This document shows, piece by piece, positions 6,262 to 64,000 of a DNA stretch of 64,000 nt. Position 1 is the stretch's first letter. Every line of letters begins with the position of its first letter. The position numbers and the translations under genes were made by a program. This stretch comes from Octopus vulgaris (Eukaryota), in contig OX597819.1 in NCBI GenBank assembly GCA_951406725.2, positions 31,496,001-31,560,000 of the forward strand, given 5' to 3'. The notes below the pieces were generated by a model. It ran no database searches, was not told where the DNA came from, and saw nothing but the letters and a program-made list of their open reading frames with translations.

Positions 6262-6383
6262 ATACTCAGCACAAATGCAAACGTAAACACACTAGAAACA
6301 CTAACAAACACTCAATCATAGATATACACATTTTTGCATATGGGCAGAAGTATATTTAAATTTCATGCACACATACATATATA

Positions 6384-6610
6384 TTTCTTTACTACCCACA
6401 AGGGGTTAAACGCAGAGGGGGACAAACAAGGACAGACAAACGGATTAAGTCGATTATATCGACCCCAGTGCGCATAACTGGTACTTAATTTATCGACCCC
6501 GAAAGGATGAAAGGCAAAGTCGACCACGGCGGAATTTGAACCCAGAACGTAACGGCAGACGAAATACGGCTACGCATTTCGCCCGGCGTGCTAACGTTTC
6601 TGCCAGCTCG
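6384..6610 (-). mobile_element. SINE-B, tail type 2
   Basis: Reverse complement: GAGCTGGCAGAAACGTTAGCACGCCGGGCG...CCCCTTGTGGGTAGTAAAGAAATA. Confidence 0.9.
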
Positions 6611-6862
6611 TAGAAGTATAAGTGCATACATCTGCCCATATCTCGTCTACTCAGTGCATGGGAATAAATGTAATTATTCATATCCAAGAATTGTCTTTTA
6701 CCATCACTTCAACTCGCACGGATGCTCGTGAATAGAAATCACACTTGTCTAAAAAATTAAGGCAAGTTTATATCATTCTAGACTAATATGGCCATTTAAG
6801 ATCTCCATGATTAGTGAAAAATGCAGGAACGGCTGAAGATACCGTACACACATACACACACA

Positions 6863-7599: not shown

Positions 7600-10481
7600 G
7601 AATGTTTAAAAAAAAACCTCAATTAAAGAAAAAATTATATGAAAACCACACTTGACATCGATACCTATTTCTTTATTACCCACAAGGGGCTGAACATAGA
7701 GGGGACAAACATGGACAGACATAGGTATTAAGTCGATTATATCGACCCAGTGCTTAACTGGTACTTAATTTATCGACCCCAAAAGGATGAAAGGCAACAT
7801 CGATACCACCATAGAAACCATCAAGCAAAAGGTAATTTTTACAGGAAGCTGCAAAATTTTTTCAAAATTTTTACAGGAAGATGGGGAAAATACCAGTTAC
7901 AGTAAAGTCTGTCCCATCAAAAGCATTACAGGAATTTTGGAATAAAATTTGGGCGCAAAGAAAAAACACAATAAAAAGGCCTTTTGGATTGATAGAATAT
8001 CTACTGACTTAGACTCCTTAGAAGAGCAAACGTGGGTGGTTATCAAAGTAGAGGATGTAAGATCTGCTCTCAGGAAGTCAAGCAAATGGAAGTCTCCAGG
8101 AAAGGATAACATTCCTAACTTCTGGTTGAATGCTTTCTCAGAGAGTCATGAACTGCAAACAAAACTTTACAACAATGCTTTGCAACAACCTAGTATGATT
8201 TCCTCTTGGCTTGTTAATGGTCTTACATTCCTACTTCCAAAATATGAAGAAACAAATGAACTAAAAATTATAGACCCATAATCTGCTTAACAACAATGTA
8301 TAAAGTGCTAACATCTGTCTTGACTAAATATACCTGTAGTTTTTTAATAGAAAGTGGCATATTCCCTAATGAGCAAAAAGGATGTAAACGTTGGTACTAT
8401 GGTTGTAAAGATCAGCTACCCATCAATAAGATGATCTTGGAAGATTGTCACAAACGACATAAAAACCTGTCGACAGCCTGGGTAGACTATAAAAAACGCT
8501 TTTGATAGTCTACCACATAGCTTGATTAAGAAGTATTATGGAAATGTATAAAATAGCACCTACTCTGCGAAACTTCTTGTCTGTAAGTGTGAGATCATAG
8601 AGAACCACACTGACTTTGAACAGTGACAATGAATCTCTCAATGCTGGAGATATAAGAATTTCATGAGGCATTTTCCAGGGTGACTCTCTATCACCACTCC
8701 TCTTTTGTCTGACCTTAATACCTCTCACGAAATTGCTCAATGATGTACAATATGGTTATAAAATGTTTGATAAAAATATAAATCATCTCTTTTACATGGA
8801 TGATTTAAAACACTTAGCAAAAAAATGACCAACAACTACAGGGCTTACTAGCAATTGTTAAGCAATTCGCAGATGACATCAGAATGAAATTTGGCCTCGA
8901 TAAATGTGCAAAAGCTACATTTATCAAAGGAAAAAAGGACAGAAACATCCAACGTTAATCTTGACCAGCAGAATATCATAAAGGAGTGAGAAACAGCGGA
9001 GAGCTACAAATACCTAGGAGTATTTGAAGGTAATGAAATCAAACATTCAATGATGAGGGAAAGGACCAGAAGGGGATGTTATCGCAGGGTAAGGGAAATA
9101 TTCAAGACAGAGCTGAATGCAAGAAACAAGATCGAAACGATCAACACTTTAGTCATACCGGTCGTGATTTACAGTTTCAATATCATTAACTGGTCAGTTA
9201 CTGAAATATGTAATCTTGACAGAAAAATACGAAAATTGTTGACAATGTGTAGAATGCACCACTCTAAGGTAGATATAGAACGAATTTACCTGCCAAGAAA
9301 AAAGAGTGAGCGTGGACTGGAATTAACAACTGGAATTAACTATGAAAAATGCCACAGTTGGCCTACACACATATCTGAAAAACTTGTCTTAAAGCACGAA
9401 AACAAGAAAGCATCATACTCAGTAACAAATCAGGCAAAGGAATATCTATGTGAATTCCAAATACAGCAAATCCCGGAATTAAACGTACTGGAAACAAGCC
9501 CAGAAAAAAATAAGCGTATGAAAACCCGTGCTAAAACTGGTGTCTTCGATATTCTTACTGATAAATGGCAAGAAAAACCTCTCAATGGCAAATACCCCAA
9601 AAGAGCTAATAATGCCGATGTTGACAAAGCCCTTACCCATCAACGATTAAAGTCTTCTGGCTTAAAATCAGAAACAGAAGGGTTTATCATAACAGCTCAA
9701 GATCAATGCCTGCCTACAAGGAGATACCAGGCCAACATATTAAAGAACGGCAGCAGCCTAACATGTGTACGTAAACAACAAGATGGAACTATTGATCATG
9801 TTGTCTCCAAGTGCAGTCTTCTTGCGCCTACAGAGTATCTCAACAGGCATGCTAGAGCAGCACAGTATATTCACTAGGTAATTTATAAAAACTGGTGGGA
9901 ACACAAACCACCTCCAGTGCTTGAAATTGATAACATCTCACTCCTCTGGAACTTCATCGTTCAAACTGACACAAAGAGAGATGCAAATAGGTCAGACATT
10001 ATATTGAAAGACATCAGACAAAAATCATGCCTCCTCATTGATATGACTGTCCCAATTGACAAATGTATTTGTCAAGACCTACCAAAAACTGAACAAGTAT
10101 AAAGATCTTGAAATAGAAATGTGGAACCTCAACACTAAAACAATACCTGTTGTCATAAATGCCCTAGGAATGATAGCAAACGGGTCTGATTCCTACCTAG
10201 CTCAGATACCAGGAAACCCCAAAATGGAGGAAATTCAAAAGATAATGCTCATGGGAACTGCCCATATCCTACGTAAAATACTCTATATGTAATCTCAAAT
10301 TTTAAGACAAACTTATAATTTCCTTGTTTTCTTAAACATTCTCTAGAACAATACTATGTGCAAAACTAAATATAGGACACCCTAGACATAACACAAGCTT
10401 GAACTTCTAACTTGTTGTCTCTTGAGGTCTCTGGGTGTGACTTGGAGTCAACTTGTACTAATACAAAGAAAAAGTCAAACA
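7600..10481 (+). mobile_element. R4/Dong-clade non-LTR retrotransposon (5'-truncated, frameshifted)
   Basis: RT motifs KSPGKDNIPNFWL, EQKGC..GCKDQL, AWVDYKK.FDS, IFQGDSLSPLLFCL, HLFYMDDLK; degenerate CCHC region (TIDHVVSKC..EYLNRH); restriction-like endonuclease NRSDII..LIDMTVP..KYKDLEIE; ends at (TAA)n. Confidence 0.88.
7666..7796 (-). mobile_element. 5'-truncated SINE-B (tail type 2) nested in the R4/Dong element
   Basis: Flanked by the 11-bp direct repeat ACATCGATACC at 7655-7665 and 7797-7807. Confidence 0.85.
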
Positions 10482-10535
10482 AATAATAATAATAATAATA
10501 ATGATAATAATAATAATAATAATAATTATAATAAT

Positions 10536-10594
<59 letters not shown>

Positions 10595-10610
10595 TAATAA
10601 TAATTATAAT
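10482..10610. repeat. (TAA)n tract at the 3' end of the R4/Dong element
   Basis: Directly visible. Confidence 0.95.
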
Positions 10611-10696: not shown

Positions 10697-11878
<1,182 letters not shown>

Positions 11879-11890
11879 ATTAATAAAGTT

Positions 11891-12825: not shown

Positions 12826-13451
12826 GTGGTTTGATCAATAAGTGTCCGGACTGTTGCTATAGTAACGAAGCTAAAGCACTCAGAGTAAAGCCGCTTGGCA
12901 CAGATGGACATCAAACTCTGTTTTAACGTTCTAGCTCACTACCGCTGTTTACAGCAATGCTTGGAAGGAAGGTGTGTAACGTGTGATCGTCGCATTGACC
13001 ATGACAGAAAAAGTTGAGCTGAGAATCTGCATCAGATTTTGTCAAATGCTTGGTGATGCCTGCTCAGAAACCTACGCAAAGTTTTCAAAACGTTCTCATC
13101 GTTCTCGATCCAGTCAAGGAGATCTTGTGCAACTGAAACGCGAGTGTCTTTTAGGTCAGCTGAAAGCAGTTTTGGCACAAACTTGGCAGACATACGTCTC
13201 ATACCCAAATCTTCAACGATGATGGACTGAACTGAACTGTAACTAATCTGCACATCCTCTGATAACTCACGGATGGTGATTCGACGATTTCCCCTCACAG
13301 CTGCACTCACACCTGCGATGTTTTTCTCAGTTCTGCTGGTTGCAGGTCTCCCAGAACGTTCGTTAATATCGACATTTTTCGGCCATCTTGGAAACGTTTG
13401 AACCATCGTACACTTGCATGCAGCTCATACACTCCTCTCCATACACTTTCT
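12826..13451. mobile_element. Mariner transposase remnant with internal inversion
   Basis: Plus strand: TIR-like GGTTTGATCAATAAGTGTCCGGACT and MTEKVELRICIRFCQMLGDACSETYAK. Minus strand 13082-13451: KVYGEECMS..WFKRFQDG..RSGRPATS..RRITIRELS..LGMRRMSAKFVPKLL. Confidence 0.85.
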
Positions 13452-14146: not shown

Positions 14147-14417
14147 TTGGTACCTGAATGGAGTGAAAATTTAAAAACTGTTTCTTTCGGTGAGTTTTCT
14201 GAAGAAACTGGACCTAGCCACAGACTTTCCCAGAAGAGTAAAGCCTTAGACTATTTCTATTTACTTTTTCGAATGAGCCTATTTGAAATCATTACGCTAA
14301 ACGTAAACAAACCGAAAGAAAGGATAGTTTGTTATTTCCCACAATCTTAAATGAAATTAAGGCCTATTTTGCCATAAATATTATTATGGGTATCAGAAAG
14401 TTACCCAGAATAACAAA
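14147..14417 (+). pseudogene. piggyBac-like transposase N-terminal fragment inside the Helitron
   Basis: FSEETGP..ALDYFYLLF..LFEII and, in another frame, NEIKAYFAINIIMGIRKLPRI; resembles the EIKAF.G..I.MG..KLP motif of piggyBac/PGBD transposases. Confidence 0.7.
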
Positions 14418-15229
14418 TTCTATCGTAAAATTTTGTTGTATACCCAATTGAATATTAGCTAATAACCCATTTTCTATAGCGATGTTTGAACAAAATTTTA
14501 ATAATTTTACAGAAAGTTACCCAGAATAACAAATTCTATCGTAAAATTTTGTTGTATACCCAATTGAATATTAGCTAATAACCCATTTTCTATAGCGATG
14601 TTTGAACAAAATTTTAATAATTTTACAGAAAGTTACCCAGAATAACAAATTCTATCGTAAAATTTTGTTGTATACCCAATTGAATATTAGCTAATAACCC
14701 ATTTTCTATAGCGATGTTTGAACAAAATTTTAATAATTTTACAGAAAGTTACCCAGAATAACAAATTCTATCGTAAAATTTTGTTGTATACCCAATTGAA
14801 TATTAGCTAATAACCCATTTTCTATAGCGATGTTTGAACAAAATTTTAATAATTTTACAGAAAGTTACCCAGAATAACAAATTCTATCGTAAAATTTTGT
14901 TGTATACCCAATTGAATATTAGCTAATAACCCATTTTCTATAGCGATGTTTGAACAAAATTTTAATAATTTTACAGAAAGTTACCCAGAATAACAAATTC
15001 TATCGTAAAATTTTGTTGTATACCCAATTGAATATTAGCTAATAACCCATTTTCTATAGCGATGTTTGAACAAAATTTTAATAATTTTACAGAAAGTTAC
15101 CCAGAATAACAAATTCTATCGTAAAATTTTGTTGTATACCCAATTGAATATTAGCTAATAACCCATTTTCTATAGCGATGTTTGAACAAAATTTTAATAA
15201 TTTTACAGAAAGTTACCCAGAATAACAAA
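14394..15229. repeat. Tandem array, 116 bp x 7 plus 24 bp, units apparently identical
   Basis: Unit start CAGAAAGTTACCCAG recurs at 14394, 14510, 14626, 14742, 14858, 14974, 15090, 15206. Confidence 0.97.
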
Positions 15230-16795: not shown

Positions 16796-16927
16796 TATAT
16801 ATATATATATATAATATATATTTTACTATAAAATTGGATTCAATCATAAATCTGATTTTCCCCTGTAAATTTGGATTTATTCCCTAATATTTATTATTAT
16901 TTATATATATATATATATAATATATAT

Positions 16928-17090
16928 GCGGTTACGTTCTGAGTTCAAATTCCGCCGAGGTCGACTTTGCCTTTCATCCTTTCGGGGTCGATTAAATATG
17001 TACCAGTCAATCACTGGTGTCGATATAATCGACTGAATCCCCTTGTTTGTCCCTCTCTATGTTTAGCCCCCTGTGGACAATAAAGAAATA
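16928..17090 (+). mobile_element. 5'-truncated SINE-B, tail type 2
   Basis: GTTACGTTCTGAGTTCAAATTCCGCCGAGGTCGAC...TAGCCCCCTGTGGACAATAAAGAAATA inside (TA)n. Confidence 0.85.
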
Positions 17091-20909: not shown

Positions 20910-21127
20910 AAGGCGGCGAGCTGGCAGAATCGTTAGCACGCTGGGCAAAATGCTTAGCAGCATTTCGTCCGTCCTTACGTTCTGGGTTCAAATTCCGTCG
21001 AGGTCGACTTCACCTTTCATCCTTACGGGGTCGTTAAATAAGTATCAGTTGAACACTGGGGTTGATGTTACCGATTTAACCCATGCCCCAGACTTCCTGG
21101 CCTTGAGCTAAACTTTGAAATCAATAT
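20910..21127 (+). mobile_element. SINE-B, tail type 3
   Basis: AGGCGGCGAGCTGGCAGAATCGTTAGCACGC head; tail CCTGGCCTTGAGCTAAACTTTGAAATCAATA; TGTTAACTGA occurs on both sides as a possible TSD. Confidence 0.85.
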
Positions 21128-21408
21128 TTATGTTAACTGAGTGATCTCTCTTTACGGCAAAGCTCGCTCTAACCTTCCTATTCATTTCATTATCATAAAA
21201 AACCCCTAAAAAACATTTATTTTCTTTTGAGATAAGGTGAAAACGTTTTGTGCTACAGAGAAAACAGTATGATGTCGTGGGATTCATGCTTCTGCAGTGA
21301 GGAATGTCAGCGTATAATGGAATAAAATGACCTCAGCCAAATACTGAAACCATATCGAAGTCGGGAGGACTGTCACTCTAAAGTCTTCGACTTTTCATTT
21401 ATGAAATA

Positions 21409-23439: not shown

Positions 23440-24978
23440 GGAAGCTTGTGTAGGAACATAGTAAACATTTGGATTCTAGCCGTGATCTTCGGGGGCCCAA
23501 AACCGTAATTTTGTCACATATGGACATGATCCAAAAAGTTCAGTTCTTGAATTTGGACCTGTAGTGGGGTCCAGTGACCTTTTCCAGATGAGCCATCTTA
23601 CTATATTACAAAAACCGCACTTGCCACCACCGTTGGTGTAAGATTTACACTTTGTTATAATCTTCCAGTAAATCCTATAGCTGACACCTTGTTTTCTTAT
23701 GAACCATATATATCTAGATAATTTGGTAGTTTTTCGTTTATTACTGTGTCTGAAGCTTAAGATGTGATTGTTGAACCTTGCTTTGAAATTTCCCTCAGTG
23801 AGACCTACATATCTCTTTGATGAAACTGTGTTATTAGCATTCGTAGAATTTACAGTGGCTTCATAAATAATGACCTCGGTCATACAGGCTCCATTTAGCG
23901 ATCACAAGTCTTTATCCCTGCAGGAACAGCCGGCTACGTGTTGTTGTTTTGCATTGTGTGTAATTATGTTTTTAAAATCTGGGGTTGAACTAAAACTAAT
24001 TTTTAAGTTATGCCTATTAAAGAATTTCCTATATTTATGATGTGTTGGAAAATGTCAATCTATAAGTAACAAGAAATATTTACCTATATTAAAAGTCACT
24101 TCGGGGGGAGTAAGGGGGTGCGAACTAGATAATTTTCCTGTGTCTATGTTTTCTTTTCTTTATTTCTGACCTAATAGTAGGTGTGTAAGCTATTTCCTCT
24201 TTGAATCCACTAGATTTAAGAGCATTGTTATATAGTGGGACAGCATTATTGAATATGTTTATATTGGAGGAGAGGCTAGAAATTCTTCTGCTAATATTCT
24301 TAACTAAATTGTTAAACACTATGGGGCGGGGTGGCAGGAACCGACATTGATATAACTAAGTCTATCGTTGGGCTTTCTTTAGGGTTTGTAAATATTCTTT
24401 TGTAAATCCAGAGATACATCAAAGTAATTGACAACCGTCAGGTTGGTTTTATTGTTATGCTAAGGTCGAATGTTTCCATAAGGTGGAAAATATTCTTCCT
24501 TAACCGATCTTGCGCTGGCCCATTGGTATTCTTAACTAAAGCTAGAGCATCATCCCTACAAATAGCGAAATATACACCAGGAAAAGCTTTTCCTAACGTG
24601 TCAAGCAGGAATAGTTCAATGAGATCGCATATGCCTGCTCCTTCATATGACCCCATGCTCACGTCGAAAGAACCCTCTGCGTCTGCTGTCTTGACCCACT
24701 CTCTGTTCTCGCTGAAGAGTAAGGTCTTTCTAGCATGGAGGATTATATCATTATCTGGTTCACTAATCTCTGTAAAATCGCTTGCGAAAGTGAGGGCTTT
24801 ATCTATCAGCTTCCTAGAAATAGATGCACAGAAAGCTACAATATCAAATTGTGTACATCTTGCTTTATTCTTATTTCTAATTGCTTTAAACCAGTGAACA
24901 ACTTCTATGCTATTGGACCATTGTACTAAATTAGTTGCCCCTCTAACTTTAGCATTGGTTTTTCTTAAACTTCCCTTA
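23440..24978 (-). mobile_element. Penelope-like element (RT + GIY-YIG), decayed
   Basis: RT motifs QFDIVAFCASI, FDVSMGSYEGAGICDLIELF, CRDDALA; endonuclease IIYEATV..YVGLTEGNFKARFNNH..CGFC. Related to, but distinct from, 10800-12805. Confidence 0.9.
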
Positions 24979-25413
24979 TAGATGCCAATTTGGGCTTTCT
25001 TAGCCATTTCTGTTTTGGTGTCTTCAAGCCATGAAGTCGTTGTTCTAAAAGAACGCTGGTCTCCTTGACAACGCTTTACGACGTTGATTTCCTTACACTC
25101 CCTTCCCCACAGCTTCACGAGGGAGGGAAGAAGGGGGAGAAGCAAACAGGTGCAGGTGTGACCATGGACGCCAACTCCGCCGCCATCGACACACGAAAAA
25201 TTATGCATTAAAATGGAATAAAAAATGATGTTAAATTATTTTTAAAATCGTAGACTCATCGTAGACGCGCGCTAATACTCAGACGGGCTCGATATGAATC
25301 ACGACTATAAGATACCCGAATTTGGTTAGACTGCACCGCAAAATGTGGGAGTAGTTAGGAATCTAAATCGAAGGGGACAGACACTCACACAACTACAGTT
25401 TTATATATATAGA
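24979..25413 (-). mobile_element. Helitron-like element, 5' part only
   Basis: Ends TTTTATATATATAGA|T (5'-TC on the minus strand); shares AAATCGTAGACTCATCGTAGACGCGCGCTAATAC..GGGCTCG with the reverse complement of 15230-15280. Confidence 0.65.
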
Positions 25414-29849: not shown

Positions 29850-31080
29850 CTTGATGGTTGCTAACACCGCACCTCATCGTGAAGAAAAGCATCTTGTTTT
29901 TCGCTCATATCCTTTAAATCTTAAGAAGGTCTTGCAGATGTTTATAATCTCAGATATCGCGATCATTAATAGTGTATGAATGAAATATTTACGTTCTCTC
30001 CCCAATAACCCAAGCTCAACCATTCTTTGCTCCAGGTGGGTTGGTATATATCCTGTTACTGAAAGCTGGTACGAAGCTGAAAGTGTATCTAGGATACTCG
30101 ATTTGCAAACTCCTTATTTATGGTCCATTGATGTCCACTTTCTCTTGTATTTTTCTAACCATTTTTGTGTCCAGAGAGCAGCAAATTTCCGCAACTGAAC
30201 ATATATTTTCCATGTAGTCCTACACAATGCAATCTGGTCGGTTGTCTCTTAAACTGGTGGCTGTTTTAATTTTTAAGTTCCACCAAATTCTTTTGACTTG
30301 CTGTCTCAATATAGTCAACTTCGTTTCTAGGTGTTTTATTTTTTGTTATATTGTTCCAGACCATTCAGGTCATCGCATCATGCCTCATAAAAAAATATCT
30401 GAAAAATGTTCTCTCGCAGTTGGCAATAATGTGGTTGATATCTTCAGTGTTGGTCTTGCACAACCCACATTTGTTATCTCTCAACGTTTTCTCCCTCATA
30501 TGCTATAAGTACTTGGTGGAGAATCTTTTGTTCTTGAATTGCATGGAAGTTGCCTTCAAAGTGGGATGTGATAAACTTGTTGATACACTATGCCAACCTT
30601 TAACATGATCAAGCGCTTCTACGGTTCGCGTTTTTCGTGACAAGTACCCACGTACTATCTTCTCAGTAAACCGGTCAATTTATTTACTTTGTTCTAATGA
30701 TAAATAGAACCAATGCTCCTTGGCGAGAGATCTGCATCAACTCTTATTTCATACCTTTTCTCTTGTTCATTAGCTATCCTAATTATATTATTGATTTCAT
30801 GCTCCCAAACTTGGACAAGATAATTGCTGGTCTCTTTCTTCTGCTGCAGATGTTGTTTCAGTGTCACAACGCGTACTTCATATGACATCAATACAGATTT
30901 GAGACTACGGCCACCAACATTGCGTGGGAAGATACCACATCTATATATCCATTAATGTTGAAGTCTCCTGTAACACTGAATAACTTGCGAGGTCGAACAT
31001 CTATCTCACTGAATTCTTATAGTGACCAGTTCAGATGGCCAAATGTAGGTGTGAGGACAGGCACTGCAAAGGTGTCGTGG
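29850..31080 (-). mobile_element. Second R4-like RLE non-LTR retrotransposon, 3' fragment (decayed)
   Basis: Minus-strand motifs YLP..GGR.L, GLCKTNTEDINHIIANC (CCHC), RDNRPDCIV (RLE PD motif). Boundaries approximate. Confidence 0.7.
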
Positions 31081-42202: not shown

Positions 42203-42204
42203 TG

Positions 42205-45200
42205 CTAACTGATTTTCATCGAAGTGAAGTGTCTCCCCAAGGCCGTCATCATTCCTCGCCTCTACCAACCTTCTATAAAAGAACGAAGTAGAACCCCCGC
42301 CGCTGGTATTGCCCGTGCGAGAGAGAAACCGGAATGCCTGTCGGTACTCCATGTTCCACTCGCTGTACTTTGGTCTACGTTGGATCCATGGCTCTAGTTC
42401 ACTAAAGCTAGAGAACCTAGGAAGTAGCCATCTGACGAACAGAGACCACACCTATTCACCATCCAGGTAGAGCCACAGATGCCTGAGCCTCAGTGCTAAT
42501 TTGCACATCAACAGCCAAGGCATCCCTAGCCCACCCTTTAGCGAGTGTTGGCAGCAGACAGAGCGCTTCACAAGCGGACTTTTACGCTTCCACGAAAAGG
42601 GGAAAAGGAGCCGTTCCAACTTGTTTAGCCACGAAACGGGAGAAGGCACGACGGTTAGGCGGTAGGTAATCACAGAAGCGATAAACACTTCTGCTACCTC
42701 CATCCTCCCTTTCAAGGATAACCACCGCCCAGACCAGGTCTGAGTTAGGTGAGTCACCTTGCTCGCCACCTCGCCCCAATTCTTCTCTACCTGGAGGTCT
42801 GGTCTAAATCAACCCCCTAGCATTTTAACCAGTCCTTCCGTCTAACGCCCCACGACACTGTTGGAAGGCATCAACTTGCCTCTCCTGGTACCAAGTTGCA
42901 AGCCGACTGATTTCTTTCCGTTAATTTTTGCTCCTGCCACTGCCTCGTATTCCTTGATGGCTTCACCCACAATTTGTAGGTGATCCACCTCGGACATGAT
43001 GATAGTGATGTCATCCGCAAAGGCTGTGACCGCCCTCTAATTTTCTAGATCGCGCGGAAGCCCCCCCCCCCCCCATCTGACCGATGCAGAAAAGGCTTAA
43101 GAGCCAATACGTGCAGAAAGGGAGAGAGGAGACATCCTTGACGAACTGAGCACTTGATGATGAACGTTTTCCAAAAGAAACCGTTCATCCGAACGATCGA
43201 ATCGATGTTGCCGTACAAAGCAATGATCCAGCTGCAGAAGACGGGGCCAAACCCGAACGCTGCGAGGACCGTCACCAGGTACCGATGGTCAACCCTATCG
43301 AACGCCTTAGATTGGTCTAAATGTACCAATGCCCCACCCTTGCCAGTAACCCTACTAACCCTCTCTAAGGTGTAGCGTATAAGGTGGAGATTATCGTGTA
43401 TAGATCTGCCGGGAACGGCCCACGTTTGTGCCTCCTCGAAGAGTCTATCCACGACACGCGTCAACCTTCTTGCTAACACCTTGGCCATAATCTTCATCTC
43501 TGTGTTAAGCAGAGTGACGGGCCAGAAATCGTCTATACTAACCCCCTTATTTGGGTTCTTTCTAAGCAGCGTCACCACTCCCCAGCTCACAGATTTGGGA
43601 ACAAACTCGTTCTGCTGTCAGTTCGTGAAGATGCAAGCCAGCAGGTGCCCAAACAAGTCTGGCATACTACAGTAAAGTTCGTAGGGAAGGCCATCTAGAC
43701 TCGGTGACTTATCCCCGCCGCAGTCCGCCAGAGCCTCCCCAACCTCCGCAGCTGTAATCGGTCCTTCACAGCACTCCGCATCCCGCCCCAAGAGACGCGA
43801 CAAACCGGCGAGGAAGTCCGTAAGGCCACTCTTACACTCCGGTCCGTTTCTTTCCCACGAAAAGCAGTGCGAAATGCTCCTAAAAGACCTTGCATATCTC
43901 CGCGGCTTCGTTTATCAAGTTCCTTTGATCATTCATCAAAGACCCTATAGAATTTTTATTGCCACATTGGGCCTCTATCACACGGGCCCATCCAGCGGCT
44001 TTGATTCCTTCCTGTCCTACTGCACGTTGCTTAGCCCTGACTACGCACCCCTCATATTTACCCTCGATGTGTTGATTCAAAATCAATCTTGCAGCCAAGA
44101 CTCGGGGCGCGGATTCAGATCTCAGTGCTTCATCTAAGTCCTTAACTAAGGCCCTTTCTGTTCTATTTTTCCTAGCTACTAATTTTTTTACTAAACCTAA
44201 TGGACTCAAATTTAATGGCTCTTTTAAGGGCATATAATATCCATTCAGTGCGACCTGAGGTTATGTAGGAAACGGGCTTGTTTCCAAGTTGATCTCAGGC
44301 TGCGCACATTTAAACATCCAATCTTAAGAATGTCCATAAAAAGTTTTTTTTTCAAATACTCACCCCTTCACGATCTTTATCTTCCGGGGCTTGCGGAGTA
44401 CTATTGGTGAGGCCCTCATAAATTTGGGAAGAAAATCTTTCCTTATGGGCATAATGTCTGTTTCATATTCTTTTTTGAATAAATTGTAGCGAATTCTAGT
44501 TATCGAATAAATTAACACGTCTTCGGGAATTCTATTTTCGAATTTATGTGTAATGTCAATGGAATCCTTTGATTCTCTTAACTTTTGCAGTAGTGTTTTA
44601 TTTCGTACGGTTACTGCAGTATCGTTATTATCTGCGTGGATTGGGTGGGACTTGGGCTGGGCAGATGTTTTAAATTCTGTACGTTCTTATATATTTTTTT
44701 TGGTTTTTGCATGTGGGACTGTTGGGGGTGGATAGATTCCCCCCACTTTTTTTCCACTCTCCCCACTTGTTCACATTCCATTTCACTCTCCGTCTCAGTT
44801 GTTACATCCTCACTTTCTTCCTCTTTTGTAATTTCCTCTTGGTTTTCTTTTTCAAGTGGGTTTTTTTTTTCGGGAAGAGGTTTGCACTCAGATCTTATGT
44901 GGCCCTTTTGGTCACACTTGAAGCATCGAGGCTTCCCCCTCCCCCTTGACTATTACTCGTAATCTCACTTCCCCCCACCTGAATTCGATTATATTTTCGA
45001 GATCTGCAGGGGCTGCTTGAATTAATAATTCGAAGCTTTGTCCCTGCAAATTTTGAAGTTCTGTAGTTTGTGCATGGAGGATTGTAATTTTGTCCTCCAA
45101 GCCCGATGTGATAGCCGCTACTAGCCAAGCAGTGTCCACCTCTGGTGGTATGTCTTCCACCCAGATCTTGAAAGTGTGTCTTCCCAGATACGTTGAAAGG

Positions 45201-45915
45201 AGAACAATTTCTGCTGTTTTCAGCGGACTTGTGGACGCCTGATTGGGTTTTTCTTCCGATTGAAAACGCACCTTAATCGTTTCAAAACGTTGTCCTCTTG
45301 TTATATATTTGATGTCCGACCACTTAGGTTTCAGGCAGAACTCCACAGTTTCTTTGGATGCTATATCCAGCTTTTTTTTGTTTAATTAAGAAACTTTTAT
45401 AAATAATTGTGCCTCGTAGGCTATTTCACTGGGAGGGGCAACTTTAGCTTCGTCCCCTCCCTTTAATCATTCCTTTAAATTTTATAAGACCTTCGACTCC
45501 GTATTGTATGTTACGCTTTTTTTTTTTTATATCTCAGTTGCTTGGGCGAAGCTAACATTTCCTTTTACAAATTGTTCTGCCGTTGGCATGTCTCTCAATT
45601 CCATGCTCAAGGCGGTTTTTGCTAGTGCTAGGACCAAAACTGGTGCAGGGACTGGCTTCATTAGATATTTTCACAGGTGATTTATCCATGCTTTTTTTTT
45701 TTTTGCTTTGATTTTACAGTAAATTTATTTGCACGAATCAATTTCCACCCTCATACAAGGGGGAAAACAAAACAACACAAGTCTGCCCTCGGCAGATAAT
45801 AAATTGTTCCAAACAAACAGTGTAATAACAGTTTCAACAAACAAATATTAACAGTAAAATGTACAAAAATTCGCGATAATCACTAACCGTAAAAAAGACG
45901 ACCGACACATCAGCT
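42205..45915 (-). mobile_element. Tx1-like (L1 clade) LINE no. 1, decayed, 3' end missing
   Basis: ORF1 remnant with zinc knuckle CFKCDQKGHIRSEC (44884-44925); ORF2 begins MDILKIGCLNVRSLRS at 44337 (APE start); RT motifs KSPSLDGLPYE, PVTLLNTEMKIMAKVLARRL, LDQSKAFDRVDH, SVRQGCLLSP, AFADDIT. Confidence 0.9.
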
Positions 45916-45933
45916 GGTGTGCTGACGATTCTG

Positions 45934-46075
45934 AATTCTTTATTACTCACAAGGGGCGAAATACAGATAGGACAATATAAGACAATACAAACATGTGGGG
46001 AGGTGAAAACGAATGAAAAGGTGAAATGGAAAAATGGAGGATGTAATGATAACACACGGCCCACATCCGGGCGCC
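45934..46075 (-). mobile_element. Putative LINE 3' UTR and terminus (shares ~55 nt with SINE-B tail type 2)
   Basis: Reverse complement is pyrimidine-rich and ends TTGTCCTATCTGTATTTCGCCCCTTGTGAGTAATAAAGAATT; no SINE-B body upstream of the shared tail. Confidence 0.6.
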
Positions 46076-46149
46076 ATCATTTCACTTTTTGATTACTTTT
46101 TTAAAAATCGGAAATGTTAATATTAAAGTCTGATTAAAAATTTTCAATA

Positions 46150-46569
46150 CTTTACTCTTTTACTCATTTACTCTTTTACTTGTTTCAGTCGTTTGACTGC
46201 GGCCATGCTGGAGCACCGCCTTTTTAGTCGAGCAAATCGCCCCCGGGACTTATTCTTTTGTAAGCCCAGTACTTATTCTATCGGTCTCTTTTGCCGAACC
46301 GCTAAGTGACGGGGACGTAAACACACCAGCATCGGTTGTCAAGCAATGCTAGGGGGACAAACACAGACACACAAACATATACACACACACATATATATAT
46401 ACATATATACGACAGGCTTCTTTTAGTTTCCGTCTACCAAATCCACTCACAAGGCATTGGTCGGCCCGGGGCTATAGCAGAAGACACTTGCCCAAGATGC
46501 CACGCAGTGGGATGAACCGAACCATGTGGTTTGTTAGCAAGCTACTTACCACACAGCCACTCCTGCGCC
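46150..46569 (-). mobile_element. SINE-A, full length
   Basis: End-to-end alignment with the other copies. Confidence 0.92.
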
Positions 46570-46762
46570 TTATTATGTATTTAATTCTTTTTATTTTTTT
46601 CTATTTTGATTTCGATGTATTTCACTTTCTCATAATCCTCCATTTTCTTTTTATCTGTTGTATCGATTATAGCAATATTCCAAATGCATGGGGATTTGGT
46701 TCTAAGCATTTACCAGTCTCGCACTTTCCAAATTCTTGATTTCGGTTAACAATTGTTTATTC

Positions 46763-46973
46763 ATTACTCTTTTTACTCTTTTACTTGTTTCAGTCATTTG
46801 ACTGCGGCCATGCTGGAGCACCGCCTTTAGTCGAGCAAATCGACCCCGGGACTTATTCTTTGTAAGCCCAGTACTTATTCTATCGGTCTCGTTTACCGAA
46901 CCGCTAAGTGACGGGGACGTAAACACACCAGCATCGGTTGTCAAGCAATGTTAGGGGGACAAACACAGACACA

Positions 46974-47024
<51 letters not shown>

Positions 47025-47212
47025 GTATATATATATATATACATATATACGACAGGCTTCTTTCAGTTTCCGTCTACCAAATCCACTCACAAGGCATTGG
47101 TCGGCCCGGGGCTATAGCAGAAGACACTTGCTCAAGATGCCACACAGTGGGACTGAACCCGGAACCATGTGGTTGGTTAGCAAGCTACTTACCACACAGC
47201 CACTCCTGCGCC
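46763..47212 (-). mobile_element. SINE-A, full length
   Basis: End-to-end alignment with the other copies. Confidence 0.92.
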
Positions 47213-47215
47213 ATT

Positions 47216-48470
47216 AGTTCATAAAAATTGATATTTTTGTTACTTTGTTTTTTTGTTTTATTTTACGGGGAGGGGGTTGTGAGTTTTGGGACACCCGTGA
47301 GTGCATGCAAGTTTTTTCCATGTCAGCCGGAGTAGAGGGAGGACCGGTGGTTGCTGGGGAAGGGTGTGACAAAGTGGGCTTGGGTGGGAGCTGGGTGGGA
47401 CTCATCACTGCCAATTTGTGTCTTCCTCTTTTACTTTTCTATTTTCCCCATCCTTCTTCGTCTCTTACATCCTTTGATGTTGTCTCTGTGTTGGTTTCTG
47501 GTGGAGGCGGAGGTGTAGTTTCCTTTTTGCTTTTGGTGTCAGCGGGAAGTAACACCTAGGGATTCTACCCTCTACTTTAACCTTCAGCACCACATCTTTG
47601 ACCATGATGGTTTCAATCATATTTTCAATGTCTTCAGGGTTGCTTGGATCGGTATCTCCAGCCCTTGCCCCTGCCAATTCTTATGAGTCGTAAACGTGGC
47701 TTGGAGGACAACCATTTTCTCCTCCAAGCCTAACAGGATCGCGTCTACTAACCAGGCTGCATCTATCTCTGCAGGTACGTCTTCCAAGGTATGTGGGTAG
47801 AAGCACTACCTCATTCGTCTTCAGCGGGGTTACATAGTGCAACCGGGCGGTTTCTGCATCCCTGAGCCGCACCTCCACCGTGCCGTACTTCTTGTCTCTG
47901 CTTATATGTATTATTTCCCCTTTATATGCATTATTTAACGCTTTTTCTATTTGACTCTGCGTCATTATTTCAAGTTTTTGGCTGTCCACCGAAAGCATTT
48001 GATGAACAATTAATTTCTCCTTTCGACATAACATGACAACTTGGGGCGGGAACACATTTACATTGTTTCCGTCTTTTTTCAATAGTTAATTAAACTTTCC
48101 AATCTGGTTCAAATTAATATTTTTGTGGTGGCTTTTAGCTGCCTTTGCAAAATTCATTTTGTCTACGTTGTCAATTGATCTAAGGAGTTCCTCGTCTGAG
48201 GAGGAATACTTAGACGAGCTCATACTACTAGTATAGGATATCCTTGAAGCTACGCAGCCCCCTACAAAATGGGAACAGCGTAAAACAATTCAGCCGTAAA
48301 ACAGCAAAACAAGTGTTCAACAATGCAATACAATAACAAATTAAACACAATTTTCACAATTTTCAATTTTTCACTGACCTTTTATACGCGAGACTATTTT
48401 CTATTCAATGGTTAACCATGTTTTGTATCCATTTGTAAAAATAAAGACGACCGGCAAAATAAAGACGACA
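47216..48470 (-). mobile_element. Tx1-like LINE no. 2, 5' UTR and ORF1 remnant
   Basis: ORF 47681-48082 TPLKTNEVVLLPTYLGRRT matches ORF1 of LINE no. 1 (SPLKTAEIVLLSTYLGRHT); KVKVEGRIPRCY marks the start of the zinc knuckle; both 5' leaders contain CGGTCGTCTTT. Confidence 0.8.
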
Positions 48471-48501
48471 GGCGTGCTGACGTTTCTGCTAGCTTGCCGC
48501 C
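48471..48501 (-). mobile_element. SINE-B head interrupted by the Tx1-like LINE
   Basis: Reverse complement GGCGGCAAGCTAGCAGAAACGTCAGCACGCC, 28/31 identical to the SINE-B head at 63464-63494. Confidence 0.85.
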
Positions 48502-49699: not shown

Positions 49700-50930
49700 T
49701 TTAACAATTGTTAATCAATCCTGTAAAAGCTTAGTTAATAACATTAGTAGTTCCATATCGAAGCATCTTTAAACCAAGGATGTAGAAGAATCATTAAACC
49801 GAGCTGATCTTTGTTACAACGACGCTTTGAAAGCCAGTGGCTTAAAAGATAGAATATATTGCATACAAAACAATATACATAAATGCAAATACAGAGAATA
49901 AAAGAATTATTGTATTGTCTTCCCTATTGTTTAAATGTTCCTTTGTAATGTTATCAGAGATTTCCTAAACCTTCTGAATAAGTGTTTCGTTACCGTAAGT
50001 TTATAAAAAAAATCGTTGAGGTTGTTGTTGCCAATGCTGCCTCCATTGATAAGATATACTGTAGAAATTTTCCCGATACAAACAATCAAATCTCTTCTCC
50101 TTTTGTAAGTGTAACGACTCTAATATCTCCATTCACAACTGTATGTTTCTTCTAAAGTATTAGTTTATCGAAATAAGATCTCCCGTGCAAATAACAGAAG
50201 CACCATAAGATATATGGATTTTTATGAAAACCCTTTAAGAAAGATGATCATCGCAACATAAGTGAACATAAGGCGCAGGAGTGGCTGTGCGGTAGGTAGC
50301 TTGTTTACCAACCACATGGTTCCGGGTTCAGTCCCACTGCGTGGCACCTTGGGCATGTGTCTTCTACTATAGCCTCAGGCCGACCAATGCCTTGTGAGTG
50401 GATTTGGTAGACGGAAACTGAAAGAAGCCCGTCGTATTTATGTATATATATATATGTGTGTATGTGTTTGTGTGTCTGTGTTTGTCCCCTAGCATTGCTT
50501 GACAACCGATGCTTGTTGTGTTTATGTCCCCGTTACTTAGCGGTTCGGCAAACGAGACCGATAGAATAAGTACTGGGCTTACAAAAGAATAAGTCCCGGG
50601 GTCGAGTTTCTCGATTAAAGGCGGTGCTCCAGCATGGCCGCAGTCAAATGACTGAAACAAGTAAAAGAATAAAAGAAAAGAAAATTCAAACGCTCAATAC
50701 ATCACTATCACACTATATCTGAAATTTAAAAGTTATTAGACTGTTTTTTTTTTAGAGAACATCTATATTAATAGTTCCAGGAGGTGGGGGTTTGTATCTG
50801 CCGAGGAGGCATAGCATTTTACAACAAACTTTAACAGCTTTAAACAAACCACGTAAACCACAGTTTTAAACAAATAATCGGAATTACTGAATTCTGACGA
50901 ACACTTCCGTCGCTAGTTATCAAGGAATTT
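49700..50930 (+). pseudogene. Highly decayed Penelope-like thumb/GIY-YIG region interrupted by a SINE-A
   Basis: Broken motifs resembling ALKASG..I.Y, PYCLNV and Y.G..ENPFK, in the same order as in 11891-12636; boundaries approximate. Confidence 0.45.
50271..50682 (+). mobile_element. SINE-A, full length
   Basis: End-to-end alignment with the other copies. Confidence 0.92.
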
Positions 50931-51135
50931 TATAACTATCAATTGACTAGCATATTTAATATTTTTTTTTACATAACAGACTTACAGTTATCTGAAAGAT
51001 TGTCACACACTAAAAAAAAACAAAAAAAAACACTCACATTTTCAGCAACACCAAAACTTCAAGAACTGCCGTTTCCACCTCATTAACGTAGTTAATATAT
51101 ACATATATATACATAGTTATATATACATATATAGT

Positions 51136-60554: not shown

Positions 60555-60975
60555 TATTTCTTTACTATCCACAAGGAGCTAAATACAGAGGGGAACAAAC
60601 AAGGACAGACAAACGGATTAAGTCGATTAGATCGACCCCAGTGCGTAACTGGTACTTAATTTATCGACCCCGTAAGGATGAAAGGCAAAGTCGACCTCGG
60701 CGGAATTTGAACTCAGAACGTAACGGCAGACGAAATACCTATTTCTTTATTACCCACAAGGGGCTAAACACGGAGAGGACAAACAAGGACAGACATAACG
60801 GTATTAAGTCGATTATATCGACCCCAGTGCGTAACGGGTACTTAATTTATCGACCCCGTAAGGATGAAAGGCAAAGTCGACCTCGGCGGAATTTGAACTC
60901 AGAACGTAACGGCAGACGAAATACCGCTAAGCATTTCGTCCGGCGTGCTAACGATTCTACCAGCTTACCGCCTCT
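60555..60975 (-). mobile_element. SINE-B tail-type-2 dimer (one head, two ~185-bp body+tail units)
   Basis: 14-bp TSD CCCAGTCTAATACC at 60541-60554 and 60976-60989. Confidence 0.9.
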
Positions 60976-61513: not shown

Positions 61514-62919
61514 ACAAGGAAACATATACAGTAGAATATATCACTATCTCGCTTCACTTACAAATATTACCATGTAACACGTAGGAACGACAGAATCAAC
61601 TGAATAACAAATAGTAAACCTTCTGATACCGAGTTACGTCCCTTTATGTTTTTTCAAATTTTATCAAGGTTCGCCTTTTATTCATCCAGAGTCAATAAAA
61701 TAAACAAGTCAAATACAGCAGTTGATTTCCTCGACTATGCACTTCTCTCTTGAATGTGTGACATTATGCTAGAAATTATTTATTTGTGTTGCTTTTATGT
61801 TGTAGTCGTTTAGCATCAGACCTCTAATGAAAATCGACTAATCTATCTTATTTTAAGGAATAGTGTATCTAGGATTATATTATCCAATGTGTCCTTCGTA
61901 TCTTTATGATGATAGGGTTTGATTTGAGGAAAATTTAGCTTCTATTTTTAGGAGGACGAACATCCACGTACAAAAACCGCTCATTTATGAAGAAAACAAT
62001 TAAATATACAGTGATGTGCGCAGTTACTAAATATTTTCGTAAGTGGTTTTGTCTTCTTGATAGATGATATTTATTACATATTTACATCAAATAACCGGAA
62101 ATAAGTGTCGACCATGCAATAAGATCTTGATATCAAAAATATGCAGTCTGCTTTGAAATAGATTCAAATCACATTTCTGCCACTTCTGACCACTGTAACT
62201 ATTACCACACTTGGCTGCGTGGGTTTGAAAGTAAATAGAGAAGGAAAATGCAATATTGTTTTCTGGTTTCAAATTTTGGTACGGTAATAGAAGGGAATAA
62301 GTCACTTGCATCGAACCCAATGATCAACTGATACTTTATTGTATCGCTCCCGAGAAGCAGAGTAGACCTCGGTGGAATTTGAGCTGGAAACATACAAGCG
62401 GAAGAAATGCCGCTAAGCATTTCGTCCTGCGTGCAAACGATTTTGTTAGCTCGCCACCATTTTGGCTTGAAATAACTACCCTTTATTTCCTATTTACAGA
62501 TCCTGTTTCCCTGAACCACATCTCACTAACTCAGAACATAAAGCCGGAAGAAATGCTGAGAAGTACTTTGTCCGGCATGCCGACAATTATGCCAGCTTAC
62601 TGCTTTAATATTCTTTTCTACTTTAGGTACAAGGCCTGAAATCTTTGCTTACATCGATTCCAGTACCTGGCTGGTACTTATTTTATCGACCCTTTATATT
62701 ACTTTAATTGTTTCTGCTATAAGTACAAATCCTGAAATTGTGAGGGAGAGGACTGACTATTCGATTGGATCAAGCCCAGTGCTCAACTGGTACCTATTTT
62801 TTTTTTGGAGGGGGGGGCTGAAAAAGATGAAAGGCAAAGCCGACCTCGGCAGAATTTGAGCATACCTTTGGTACAGCCGGAAACAATTCAGTTAATATTG
62901 GTTTCAAAGTTTCGTACGA

Positions 62920-63111
62920 AGCTTGCAATTTCGGGAGAGGGCTAGTCGATTACATCGACTCCTGTGCTTAACTGATTCTTATTTTATGGGCGCCGAAAGG
63001 TTGTAATGCTAAGTTGACCCCGGCAGCATTTAAACTCAGAAGATTAAGTCGGAAGAAAAGCCGCTAAGCATTTTGGCCGGCGAGATAACGATTCTGCCAG
63101 CTCACCGCCTT
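62920..63111 (-). mobile_element. SINE-B (diverged), last of several decayed copies in 62290-63111
   Basis: Reverse complement head AGGCGGTGAGCTGGCAGAATCGTTATCTCGCCGG. Confidence 0.75.
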
Positions 63112-63214: not shown

Positions 63215-63905
63215 ATATGTAAGGTCTATAAGGTGGCGATTTGGCAGGAACGTTAGCACGCCGCGCGAAATGCTTAGCGAAATTTCGTCTGCCGTTACGT
63301 TGTGAGTTCAAATTCCGCCGAGGTCGACTTTGCCTTTCATCCTTTTGGAGGCCGATAAATTAAGTACCAGTTGTGTACTGGGGTCGATGTAATCGACTGT
63401 CCCCTCCCCCAAAATTTCGGGCCTTGTGCCTAGAGTAGAAAAGGATATATGTAAGGTCTATAAGGCGGCGAGCTGGCAGAAACGTTAGCACGCCGGGCGA
63501 AATGCTTAGCGAAATTTCGTCTGCCGTTACGTTGTGAGTTCAAATTCCGCCGAGGTCGACTTTGCCTTTCATCCTTTTGGAGGCCGATAAATTAAGTACC
63601 AGTTGCGTACTGGGATCGATCTAATCGACTGTCCCCTCCCCCAAAATTTCGGGCCTTGTGCCTAGAGTAGAAAAGGATATATGTAAGGTCTATAAGGCGG
63701 CGAGCTGGCAGAAACGTTAGCTACCCGGGCGAAATGCTTAGTGGTATTTCGTCTGTCTTTATGTTCTAAGTTCAAATTACGCCGAGGTCGACTTTGCCTT
63801 TCATCCTTTTGGGGGTCGATAAATTAAGTACCAGTTACGCACTGGGGTCGATCTAATCGACTGGTCCCCTCCACAAAATTTTCGGGCCTTGTGCCTAGAG
63901 CAGAA
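63215..63905 (+). mobile_element. Head-to-tail SINE-B trimer (tail type 1), 232-bp period
   Basis: Linker ATATGTAAGGTCTATA at 63215, 63447 and 63679, each followed by a full SINE-B. Confidence 0.92.
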
Positions 63906-64000
63906 TGTAGATAAAAGGCCACATATTTGTGGATTGGAATGACAGGATGAAATGTATTCCAGTACGTGTCTGCTACTTTATTTATCGACTACATCGATTC

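What the first reader, a model, noticed from the sequence alone, without database searches (positions are those of the whole stretch)
45934..46075. Putative Tx1 3' end equals the tail of SINE-B type 2: a closed LINE-SINE loop
Seen: plus-strand AATTCTTTATTACTCACAAGGGGCGAAATACAGATAGGACAATATAAGACAATACAAAC aligns with the SINE-B type-2 tail ATTTCTTTATTACCCACAAGGGGCTAAACACGGAGAGGACAAACAAGGACAGACATAAC (from 60741). Beyond ~55 nt it continues as a pyrimidine-rich UTR-like sequence rather than SINE body. Known: SINE tails usually derive from the 3' end of the mobilising LINE. Inference: the LINE lineage that targets SINE-B also propagates a SINE-B subfamily, thereby manufacturing its own target sites. 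Caveat: this segment is not contiguous with an ORF2 in this window.
Basis: partly seen in the sequence, partly recalled or inferred. Interest (0 to 1): 0.75.

Follow-up and report, generated by a model that had tools for sequence, protein, structure and literature searches.

The report
LINE end shared with SINE tail
In what is probably an octopus genome, a decayed site-specific retrotransposon sits inside the head of a short repeat (SINE) and ends in the same sequence as one subfamily of that SINE, which suggests its lineage both inserts into and gave rise to these SINEs, although the SINE copies do not use the same landing site.

Summary
On the minus strand, 45992-45936 matches all five type-2 SINE-B tails in the window and ends at the same base (0 of 1000 shuffles reach the score). 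The last 32 nt are firm (3 differences from the tail majority); the 25 nt before are marginal. The segment is not an orphan: it closes a 2.5-kb unit (48470-45934) bounded by an 18-nt direct repeat from the SINE-B head. The unit carries an ORF1 homologous to that of the neighbouring L1/Tx1-group LINE, two nested SINE-A copies and no detectable ORF2. Two diverged elements thus sit at one nucleotide of a SINE-B head. The strict loop is not supported: 0 of 5 type-2 copies lie at that target, and type 2 supplies only 2 of 9 intact target sites. Three of five type-2 junctions share another motif, GGTAT, which also occurs inside SINE-B. Best reading: the tail came from this LINE lineage; any loop runs through a sibling family. 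One locus only; no genome-wide test was possible.

The parts
45936..45992 (-). 3'-terminal stretch of element 1 homologous to the SINE-B type-2 tail (firm for the last 32-40 nt)
45934..46081 (-). Putative 3' UTR of element 1 (148 nt, 41% T, 24% C on the sense strand); follows a TGA at 46084-46082
   Evidence: UTR status inferred
45916..45933 (-). 18-nt piece of the SINE-B head directly after the 3' end; likely target-site duplication of 48488-48471 (16/18 identical, both with a C where 9 of 9 other heads have T)
48471..48501 (-). First 31 nt of a SINE-B head, broken off where element 1 begins
   Evidence: (E=7.8e-6)
48224..48470 (-). 5' UTR of element 1; shares a 17-nt terminal motif (15/17) and composition with the 5' UTR of element 2
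   Evidence: 4 of 500 and 2 of 500 shuffles
47214..48223 (-). Disrupted ORF1 of element 1; 43% amino-acid identity to ORF1 of element 2 over two blocks
   Evidence: tblastx E=1.8e-22
46773..47213 (-). Nested SINE-A copy
46572..46772 (-). 201-nt A-rich stretch (50% A), probably the continuation of element 1 ORF1; homology not significant beyond composition
46151..46570 (-). Second nested SINE-A copy (87.6% identical to the first; no clear target duplication)
46082..46150 (-). Probable end of element 1 ORF1 (inferred from length and colinearity); no significant match to ORF2 C-termini
44360..45915 (-). Element 2: 5' UTR and disrupted ORF1 (candidate ATG 45689) with a CCHC zinc knuckle
   Evidence: (PF00098 E=2.8e-5)
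42203..44337 (-). Element 2 ORF2: most of the endonuclease deleted, RT present, 3'-truncated; 6 stops in 678 aligned codons
42105..42200 (-). 3' part of a SINE-B with a type-1b tail, joined to the broken ORF2; possibly the rest of the host SINE
60555..60975 (-). SINE-B type-2 dimer (full unit 60973-60741, truncated unit 60739-60556) inside a 14-bp target duplication starting GGTATT; the inner junction is the SINE's own GGTATT at about nt 48
7667..7803 (-). 5'-truncated SINE-B type-2 copy; 10-11-bp target duplication starting GGTAT
6383..6612 (-). Near full-length SINE-B type-2 copy; 3' flank TA-rich
16927..17090 (+). 5'-truncated SINE-B type-2 copy in a (TA)n tract

Best explanation
The segment is the 3' UTR and terminus of element 1, an ORF1-bearing, ORF2-less member of an L1/Tx1-group LINE lineage whose endonuclease makes an 18-nt staggered cut in the tRNA-like head of SINE-B. 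Two diverged members (elements 1 and 2) inserted one after the other at the same nucleotide and sandwich one target duplication. SINE-B type 2 got its tail from the 3' end of a member of this lineage (by a 5'-truncated insertion into, or a template switch onto, a SINE-B) and is probably copied by a LINE protein of the lineage that recognises the last 30-40 nt. The family that moves type 2 is not the head-cutting one, or does not keep its specificity, because type-2 copies land at GGTAT or TA-rich sites. Shown: the tail homology, the repeat-bounded unit, the ORF1 kinship, the shared insertion point, the different type-2 junctions. Inferred: continuity across the two SINE-A copies, direction of transfer, trans-mobilisation, Tx1 clade membership.
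For: (1) Shared terminus, 0/1000 shuffles. (2) The unit 48470-45934 is bounded by the same head 18-mer, 16/18 identical, both with a C absent from 9 of 9 other heads. (3) ORF1 of element 1 is homologous to ORF1 of element 2 (E=1.8e-22), which has a CCHC knuckle and is followed by an RT closest to L1 ORF2p among solved structures (E about 1e-17 against 1e-8 for R2); relatives carry APE, RT and zf-RVT. (4) Leaving out the SINE-A copies, element 1 ORF1 would be about 1.28 kb against 1.33 kb in element 2, and its C-terminal part outscores 197 of 200 random window stretches. (5) The homology starts within about 7 nt of where type-2 and type-1 SINE-B diverge. (6) The segment differs from the type-2 majority at 13 of 56 columns against 24 of 270 for type-2 copies (Fisher p=0.005), unlike a freshly captured SINE tail. 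(7) In 2 of 3 type-2 copies examined the second-best match to the target 18-mer ends exactly where the tail begins (7 of the first 10 bases, background 0.25% per position; noticed by eye first). (8) 0 of 5 type-2 junctions match the head target.
Against: One locus. The C-terminal ORF1 alignment does not beat composition-matched shuffles (27 and 44 of 200; piecewise p=0.19-0.85). The second SINE-A has no clear target duplication, so a deletion or rearrangement could be hidden there. The excess divergence lies in the first 24 columns, whose homology is itself marginal; the last 32 nt are as close to type 2 as type-2 copies are. One of the two differences between the 18-mers is at a site that varies among SINE-B copies. 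Type-1a tails align to the same CCTTGTG register at 17-20 of 33, so part of the motif may be old SINE-B sequence. No significant or covarying stem-loop. The 3' end of element 2, the one with ORF2, is missing.
Confidence: 0.6

Rival explanations
1. Strict closed loop: the same LINE family that cuts the SINE-B head copies type 2 and so makes its own targets.
For: Shared 3' end and insertion in the SINE-B head. Trans-mobilised SINEs can show weaker targeting than their LINE: SINEU-1 23% and SINEU-2 13% at the target against 90% for SINEU-3 (PMC4494074), so 0 of 5 does not exclude a minority. The 10 bases after the shared end match 6/10 between element 1 and the 7667 copy in the same register (read; weak, post hoc).
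Against: 0 of 5 type-2 junctions at the head site; 3 of 5 carry a different fixed motif (chance 4e-9 at the window's GGTAT frequency). Only 2 of 5 type-2 copies keep the head site at all, and 7 of 9 intact sites are on other SINE-B types. The SINE-B remnant beyond element 2 has a type-1b tail.
Confidence: 0.15
2. Reverse flow: element 1 took its last 30-57 nt from a SINE-B type-2 copy, for example by reading through into its host SINE (it inserts in the same orientation, upstream of the tail) followed by deletion, or by template switch. Type 2 would then be moved by another LINE.
For: The last 32 nt differ from the type-2 majority at 3 positions, the same rate as type-2 copies. All three SINE-B tail types align on CCTTGTG followed 9 nt later by GAAA. 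Element 1 lacks ORF2, so it has undergone a large deletion. SINEs with L1-clade tails are rare: 3 of 58 pairs (PMC3472496, PMC3747384).
Against: No SINE body sequence is carried along; the homology starts near the type-specific boundary; the 5' part of the shared stretch is more diverged than a recent capture predicts; the type-2 tail profile does not find type-1 tails at E<5.
Confidence: 0.15
3. The segment is a separate 5'-truncated element (another LINE clade, or an unknown SINE with the same tail) brought next to the Tx1 pieces by nesting or by recombination between SINE-A copies.
For: No ORF2 and no significant protein homology tie 46150-45934 to element 1. Two SINE-A copies separate it from the recognisable ORF1.
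Against: Its 3' end abuts the head 18-mer exactly at the base where the duplication must start, so whatever inserted it used the same cut; ORF1 length and composition run on colinearly to a stop at 46084.
Confidence: 0.09
4. Chance similarity of T-rich sequence.
For: The first 25 nt of the match are explained by composition in 186 of 2000 dinucleotide shuffles.
Against: Whole match: 0 of 1000 shuffles for each of 5 copies; profile E=6.8e-8; the ends coincide.
Confidence: 0.01

Closest known systems
Tx1-Mar LINEs and SINEU of crocodilians (Kojima 2015, PMC4494074; parts 1-4 of 5 read)
   Same: Tx1 elements that target another transposable element, tandem insertions sandwiching one target duplication, two hot spots in one target used by different families, SINEs proposed to be moved by the Tx1 machinery.
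   Different: There the target is a Mariner DNA transposon, the SINEs have U1/U2 heads and poly(A) ends, no LINE sharing the SINEU-1 3' end was found, and the link rests on shared targets. Here the target is the SINE family itself, the link is a shared 3' sequence, and the target is not shared.
LINE-tailed tRNA SINEs with exchangeable tails (PMC3747384 section 1.4; PMC4824008 section 9; PMC3472496 passages)
   Same: One head and body with several tails; one tail matches a LINE 3' end.
   Different: Partners are mostly CR1, L2 or RTE; only 3 of 58 surveyed pairs had L1-clade tails (the ones named in the passages read are from maize and Chlamydomonas). No conserved stem-loop was detected here.
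HAL1 (half-L1), ORF1-only derivatives of L1 (passage in PMC5753468; Bao and Jurka 2010 not held)
   Same: Element 1 has 5' UTR, ORF1 and 3' UTR and no detectable ORF2.
   Different: It derives from a site-specific Tx1-like lineage, and one copy cannot show that it spread as a family rather than losing ORF2 in place.
Xenopus Tx1L into Tx1D; Keno, Kibi, Koshi (as summarised in PMC4494074)
   Same: Sequence-specific L1-like LINEs that insert into repeats.
   Different: Targets named in the text read are DNA transposons, LTR elements, snRNA and rRNA genes, satellites and microsatellites; a SINE head is not named there (the figure itself was not seen).
Octopus OR1/OR2 and OK SINEs (Ohshima and Okada 1994; seen only as citations)
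   Same: tRNA-derived octopus SINEs; SINE-A or SINE-B may be among them.
   Different: Identity untested: no sequence of these families was available.

Membership tests
Tx1 clade LINE (elements 1 and 2) | RT of the L1/Tx1 group | tested here: met
   Element 2 RT: PF00078 E=1.2e-18; best solved relatives L1 ORF2p E about 1e-17, R2 about 1e-8
Tx1 clade LINE (elements 1 and 2) | N-terminal APE endonuclease and C-terminal zf-RVT in ORF2 | tested here: inconclusive
   Present in relatives; in element 2 only a weak match to the first 40 residues is left (best E=0.043) and the C-terminus is lost
Tx1 clade LINE (elements 1 and 2) | ORF1 with CCHC zinc knuckle upstream of ORF2 (feature recalled) | tested here: met
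   Element 2: PF00098 E=2.8e-5. Element 1 ORF1 is homologous but the knuckle is not recognisable in it
Tx1 clade LINE (elements 1 and 2) | Sequence-specific insertion with target duplication | tested here: met
   Two diverged elements begin at the same head position with an 18-nt repeat; one locus only
Tx1 clade LINE (elements 1 and 2) | RT phylogeny groups with named Tx1 families rather than L1 | not testable with these tools
   No labelled Tx1 references among the hits; the only names are two unannotated proteins of Caretta caretta and Argonauta hians
LINE-SINE partner pair (element 1 lineage and SINE-B type 2) | Shared 3'-terminal sequence | tested here: met
LINE-SINE partner pair (element 1 lineage and SINE-B type 2) | The shared end belongs to an autonomous ORF2-coding LINE | tested here: inconclusive
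   No ORF2 match in element 1 with 271 proteins; C-terminal profiles give no significant hit at 45990-46152; element 2 lacks its 3' end
LINE-SINE partner pair (element 1 lineage and SINE-B type 2) | Same insertion signature | tested here: not met
   0 of 5 type-2 junctions match the head target
LINE-SINE partner pair (element 1 lineage and SINE-B type 2) | Conserved 3' stem-loop | tested here: inconclusive
   z from -0.96 to 0.53 for 5 tails; consensus fold -3.2 kcal/mol with 0 of 11 pairs compensatory
LINE-SINE partner pair (element 1 lineage and SINE-B type 2) | Overlapping age | tested here: inconclusive
   Type-2 copies 86-94% identical pairwise; locus repeats 16/18, host head 3 of 31 from the common head sequence (read); compatible, too few sites
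LINE-SINE partner pair (element 1 lineage and SINE-B type 2) | Tail-dependent trans-mobilisation | not testable with these tools
   Needs a retrotransposition assay
HAL1-type ORF1-only element (element 1) | ORF1 followed by the LINE 3' UTR without ORF2 | tested here: inconclusive
   No ORF2 detected; continuity across two SINE-A copies not significant by sequence
HAL1-type ORF1-only element (element 1) | Many copies share the ORF2 deletion | not testable with these tools
   No eukaryotic genome collection; one copy in the window

The most novel reading that the evidence does not exclude
A self-feeding LINE-SINE system: a Tx1-group lineage has specialised on the SINE-B family, with one branch cutting the head (nt 13-31) and a sibling cutting GGTAT at about nt 48. 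Type 2 was born when a 5'-truncated LINE landed in a secondary site at the end of a SINE-B body, and it is now copied by the sibling, so each full-length new copy adds both landing sites and type 2 can insert into itself, as the 60.5-kb dimer of two different subfamilies suggests.
Probability: 0.25. Interest if true: 0.75.

Novelty: new variant of a known kind. Interest (0 to 1): 0.5.

Why it matters
Both halves are known separately: Tx1 LINEs that target other repeats, and SINEs with LINE tails. The combination was not found in nine literature searches (open-licence papers only, Repbase Reports and most subscription journals not covered). An animal tRNA-SINE with a sequence-specific L1/Tx1-group tail would be a rare case (3 of 58 pairs in PMC3472496) and bears on whether L1-like proteins ancestrally recognised a specific 3' end. 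A LINE lineage that breaks the promoter region of a SINE family and also feeds one of its subfamilies would be a tractable model of host-parasite feedback among transposons, in a group where SINEs and LINEs make up about a quarter of the genome (11.6% and 12.9% in O. vulgaris, PMC13282606). As it stands it is a good lead for repeat curation from one decayed locus.

Tried and rejected
Segment as a decayed SINE-B body: rejected, no homology upstream of 45995. ORF2 C-terminus at 46150-46030: a by-eye resemblance was not supported (HMMs from 30 C-termini gave no hit there among the top 12 of 3198 windows; frameshift-aware profile of 5 C-termini reached by 11 of 150 shuffles and 6 of 150 random stretches). 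Piecewise ORF1 homology of the stretches after the SINE-A copies: not significant; joined, only compositional. Search for named ORF1 relatives or ORF1-ORF2 fusions: none among 270 candidates; Atlas look-alikes for element 2 ORF1 were unnamed or DUF4780/RRM/Pre-C2HC at 0.87-0.90, a lead only. Rfam on 41000-64000: only microsatellite artefacts, no tRNA; ARAGORN found 0 tRNA genes, so the tRNA origin of the SINE-B head rests on its look and on recall. Stem-loop in the tail: no support. Bacterial and archaeal genome contigs, searched for stray host DNA: nothing. A third 5' UTR near 50700-50950: not significant (13-36 of 500 shuffles). MetaSINE membership of SINE-B: the part of the supplement read (part 1 of 4) held only bivalve sequences, so untested. 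The cluster look-up for the closest proteins could not be made, so the species behind the unnamed relatives are unknown. The O. vulgaris repeat paper's supplement gives only family counts for L1-Tx1. No eukaryotic genome was searchable, so copy number, full-length LINE ends and genome-wide targets stayed unchecked.

Full report
Setting. The window is repeat-rich animal DNA (141 tandem-repeat rows; no tRNA genes). The closest named relative by identity of the RT at 43617-43048 is an Argonauta hians protein (56%), so an octopod source is inferred, not shown. All coordinates below run on the minus strand unless stated.

Observation. The stretch 45992-45936 aligns with all five type-2 tails and ends at the same AAAGAA; 0 of 1000 dinucleotide shuffles reach the score for any of the five, whereas four type-1 copies give p=0.01-0.59. 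A type-2 tail profile finds it as the only significant non-self hit (E=6.8e-8). Global identity to four full tails is 41-46 of 57-58, against 47-51 among those tails. The match is graded: 3 differences from the type-2 majority in the last 32 columns, 10 in the first 24, and the first 25 nt alone are marginal (12 of 2000 mononucleotide, 186 of 2000 dinucleotide shuffles). Upstream there is no SINE-B homology.

Anatomy. Reading 5' to 3': 31 nt of a SINE-B head (48501-48471); element 1 (48470-45934); an 18-nt copy of head nt 13-31 (45933-45916); element 2 (45915-42203); the 3' part of a type-1b SINE-B (42200-42105). The 18-mer occurs 11 times at up to 3 mismatches (0.03 expected). Nine copies continue into normal head sequence; the two at this locus break off at the same base, are 16/18 identical, and share a C where the other nine have T (one of two more diverged heads found also has C). 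This is the pattern of two successive insertions sandwiching one target duplication, as described for SINEU-3 (PMC4494074). Element 2 has an ORF1 with a CCHC knuckle and an ORF2 whose endonuclease is mostly deleted and whose 3' quarter is lost; its RT is nearest L1 ORF2p among solved structures, and full-length relatives carry APE, RT and zf-RVT. Element 1 has an ORF1 43% identical to that of element 2 (E=1.8e-22) and a related 5' end. So two diverged families of one lineage use one nucleotide of the SINE-B head. Placement in Tx1 rather than L1 rests on these features and on site specificity; no labelled tree could be built.

Does the segment belong to element 1? It lies inside the repeat-bounded unit, and its end abuts the 18-mer exactly. 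Two SINE-A copies interrupt the unit. The 201 nt between them are 50% A on the sense strand, matched by 0.8% of 1142 non-repetitive windows and like the ORF1 ends of both elements (40-47%). Without the SINE-A copies the ORF1 would run about 1.28 kb to a TGA at 46084-46082, against 1.33 kb in element 2. The joined C-terminal part outscores 197 of 200 random stretches but not composition-matched shuffles (27 and 44 of 200 reach it); piecewise tests were not significant. No ORF2 trace was found between 45934 and 48470 with 271 related proteins or with C-terminal profiles. The simplest reading is an ORF1-only element, like HAL1 (PMC5753468 passage), with a 148-nt 3' UTR; continuity is likely but not proven.

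Is the loop closed? If the head-cutting family moved type 2, type-2 copies should sit at the head target. None of five does (10-13 mismatches of 18). Three of five 3' junctions continue with GGTAT and two with TA repeats; GGTAT three times is not chance (4e-9; 3e-6 if the inner junction of the dimer is dropped). In the two copies with visible duplications (14 bp at 60.5 kb, 10-11 bp at 7.7 kb) the duplication starts with GGTAT. This means either an endonuclease with another specificity or priming on GGUAU at the RNA end; the window cannot tell these apart. GGTATT also lies inside SINE-B at about nt 48, and the 60.5-kb dimer joins there. Its two units differ at 14 columns, four of which pair unit 1 with the 7667 copy and unit 2 with the 6383 copy, while one column is private to the two units, so two RNAs or two events are likelier than local duplication. 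Weak targeting of trans-mobilised SINEs is documented (13-23% for SINEU-1/2), so the strict loop is not excluded by five copies. The 'manufacturing' claim is diluted in any case: 2 of 9 intact targets are on type 2, and 3 of 5 type-2 copies have lost the site by truncation.

Direction. For LINE to SINE: the homology starts near the type-specific boundary; no SINE body came along; the segment is more diverged than type-2 copies (13/56 against 24/270, p=0.005); and in two of three type-2 copies examined the best secondary match to the target 18-mer ends exactly where the tail starts (9/18 and 11/18; 7 of the first 10, background 0.25%; in the third copy 8/18). That last point was spotted by eye and concerns one ancestral event, but it fits birth of type 2 from a truncated insertion into SINE-B. 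For capture from a SINE: the last 32 nt are as close as SINE copies are to each other, and type-1a tails share 17-20 of 33 bases in the same register.

Comparison and novelty. Closest is the crocodilian Tx1-Mar/SINEU system (PMC4494074, parts 1-4 of 5 read), where the target is a DNA transposon and no shared tail was found. SINE tails from L1-clade LINEs are rare (3 of 58; PMC3472496 passages, PMC3747384 section 1.4). Other papers seen: PMC13282606 (part 1 of 3 and a supplement search), PMC4758252, PMC5786205, PMC8967140, PMC5753468 (passages), PMC4824008 (passages, section 9, supplement part 1 of 4), PMC6007223 (abstract). Ohshima and Okada 1994, Kojima and Fujiwara 2004 and Bao and Jurka 2010 were seen only as citations. 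Nine searches found no report of a Tx1 targeting an octopus SINE or sharing its tail; Repbase entries could already hold it.

Verdict. Observation confirmed; interpretation partly supported. A real shared 3' end between a SINE-targeting L1/Tx1-group element and a SINE subfamily, from one decayed locus; the loop, if any, is at lineage level. New variant of a known kind; interest 0.5; the self-feeding reading has probability about 0.25 and would deserve about 0.75.

Noticed in passing
window 60555-60975: SINE-B type-2 dimer of two subfamilies joined at the SINE's internal GGTATT and bounded by a 14-bp duplication that also starts GGTATT; the 7667 copy's duplication starts GGTAT too. Points to a fixed target or priming motif.
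   Followed up: partly
window 63215-63908: Three type-1a SINE-B copies in tandem separated by the same 16-17-bp spacer; units 1 and 2 nearly alike, unit 3 different, as if a second insertion sandwiched a target duplication.
   Followed up: no
SINE-B tails (e.g. 63630-63675, 21077-21129, 60797-60741): Three tail types on one head and body; they align on CCTTGTG followed 9 nt later by GAAA, 1a and 1b clearly related (E=5e-4).
   Followed up: partly
window 62260-63110: Old array of degraded SINE-B units on the minus strand.
   Followed up: no
window 45700-45820 (-): The 5' UTR of element 2 folds better than shuffles (z=-3.0, 2 of 200; one of eight sequences folded).
   Followed up: no
window 14394-15229: Perfect tandem repeat of a 116-bp unit, 7.2 copies, 100% matches.
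   Followed up: no
window 8000-9880 (+), 10482-10610: Remnant of another non-LTR RT (weak hits) followed by an (AAT)43 tract; R4/Dong- or RTE-like by recall only.
   Followed up: no
window 11225-12636, 23476-25235, 13032-13424: Penelope-like GIY-YIG remnants (PF01541 E=0.006 for 12121-12633) and a Tc1/mariner-like transposase piece (E=0.02).
   Followed up: no
window 30416-30670 (-): Weak match to the C-terminal zinc-binding region of LINE ORF2 proteins (E about 8e-4); another LINE remnant.
   Followed up: no
window 50700-50950: Stretch resembling the LINE 5' UTRs in composition; alignment not significant.
   Followed up: yes
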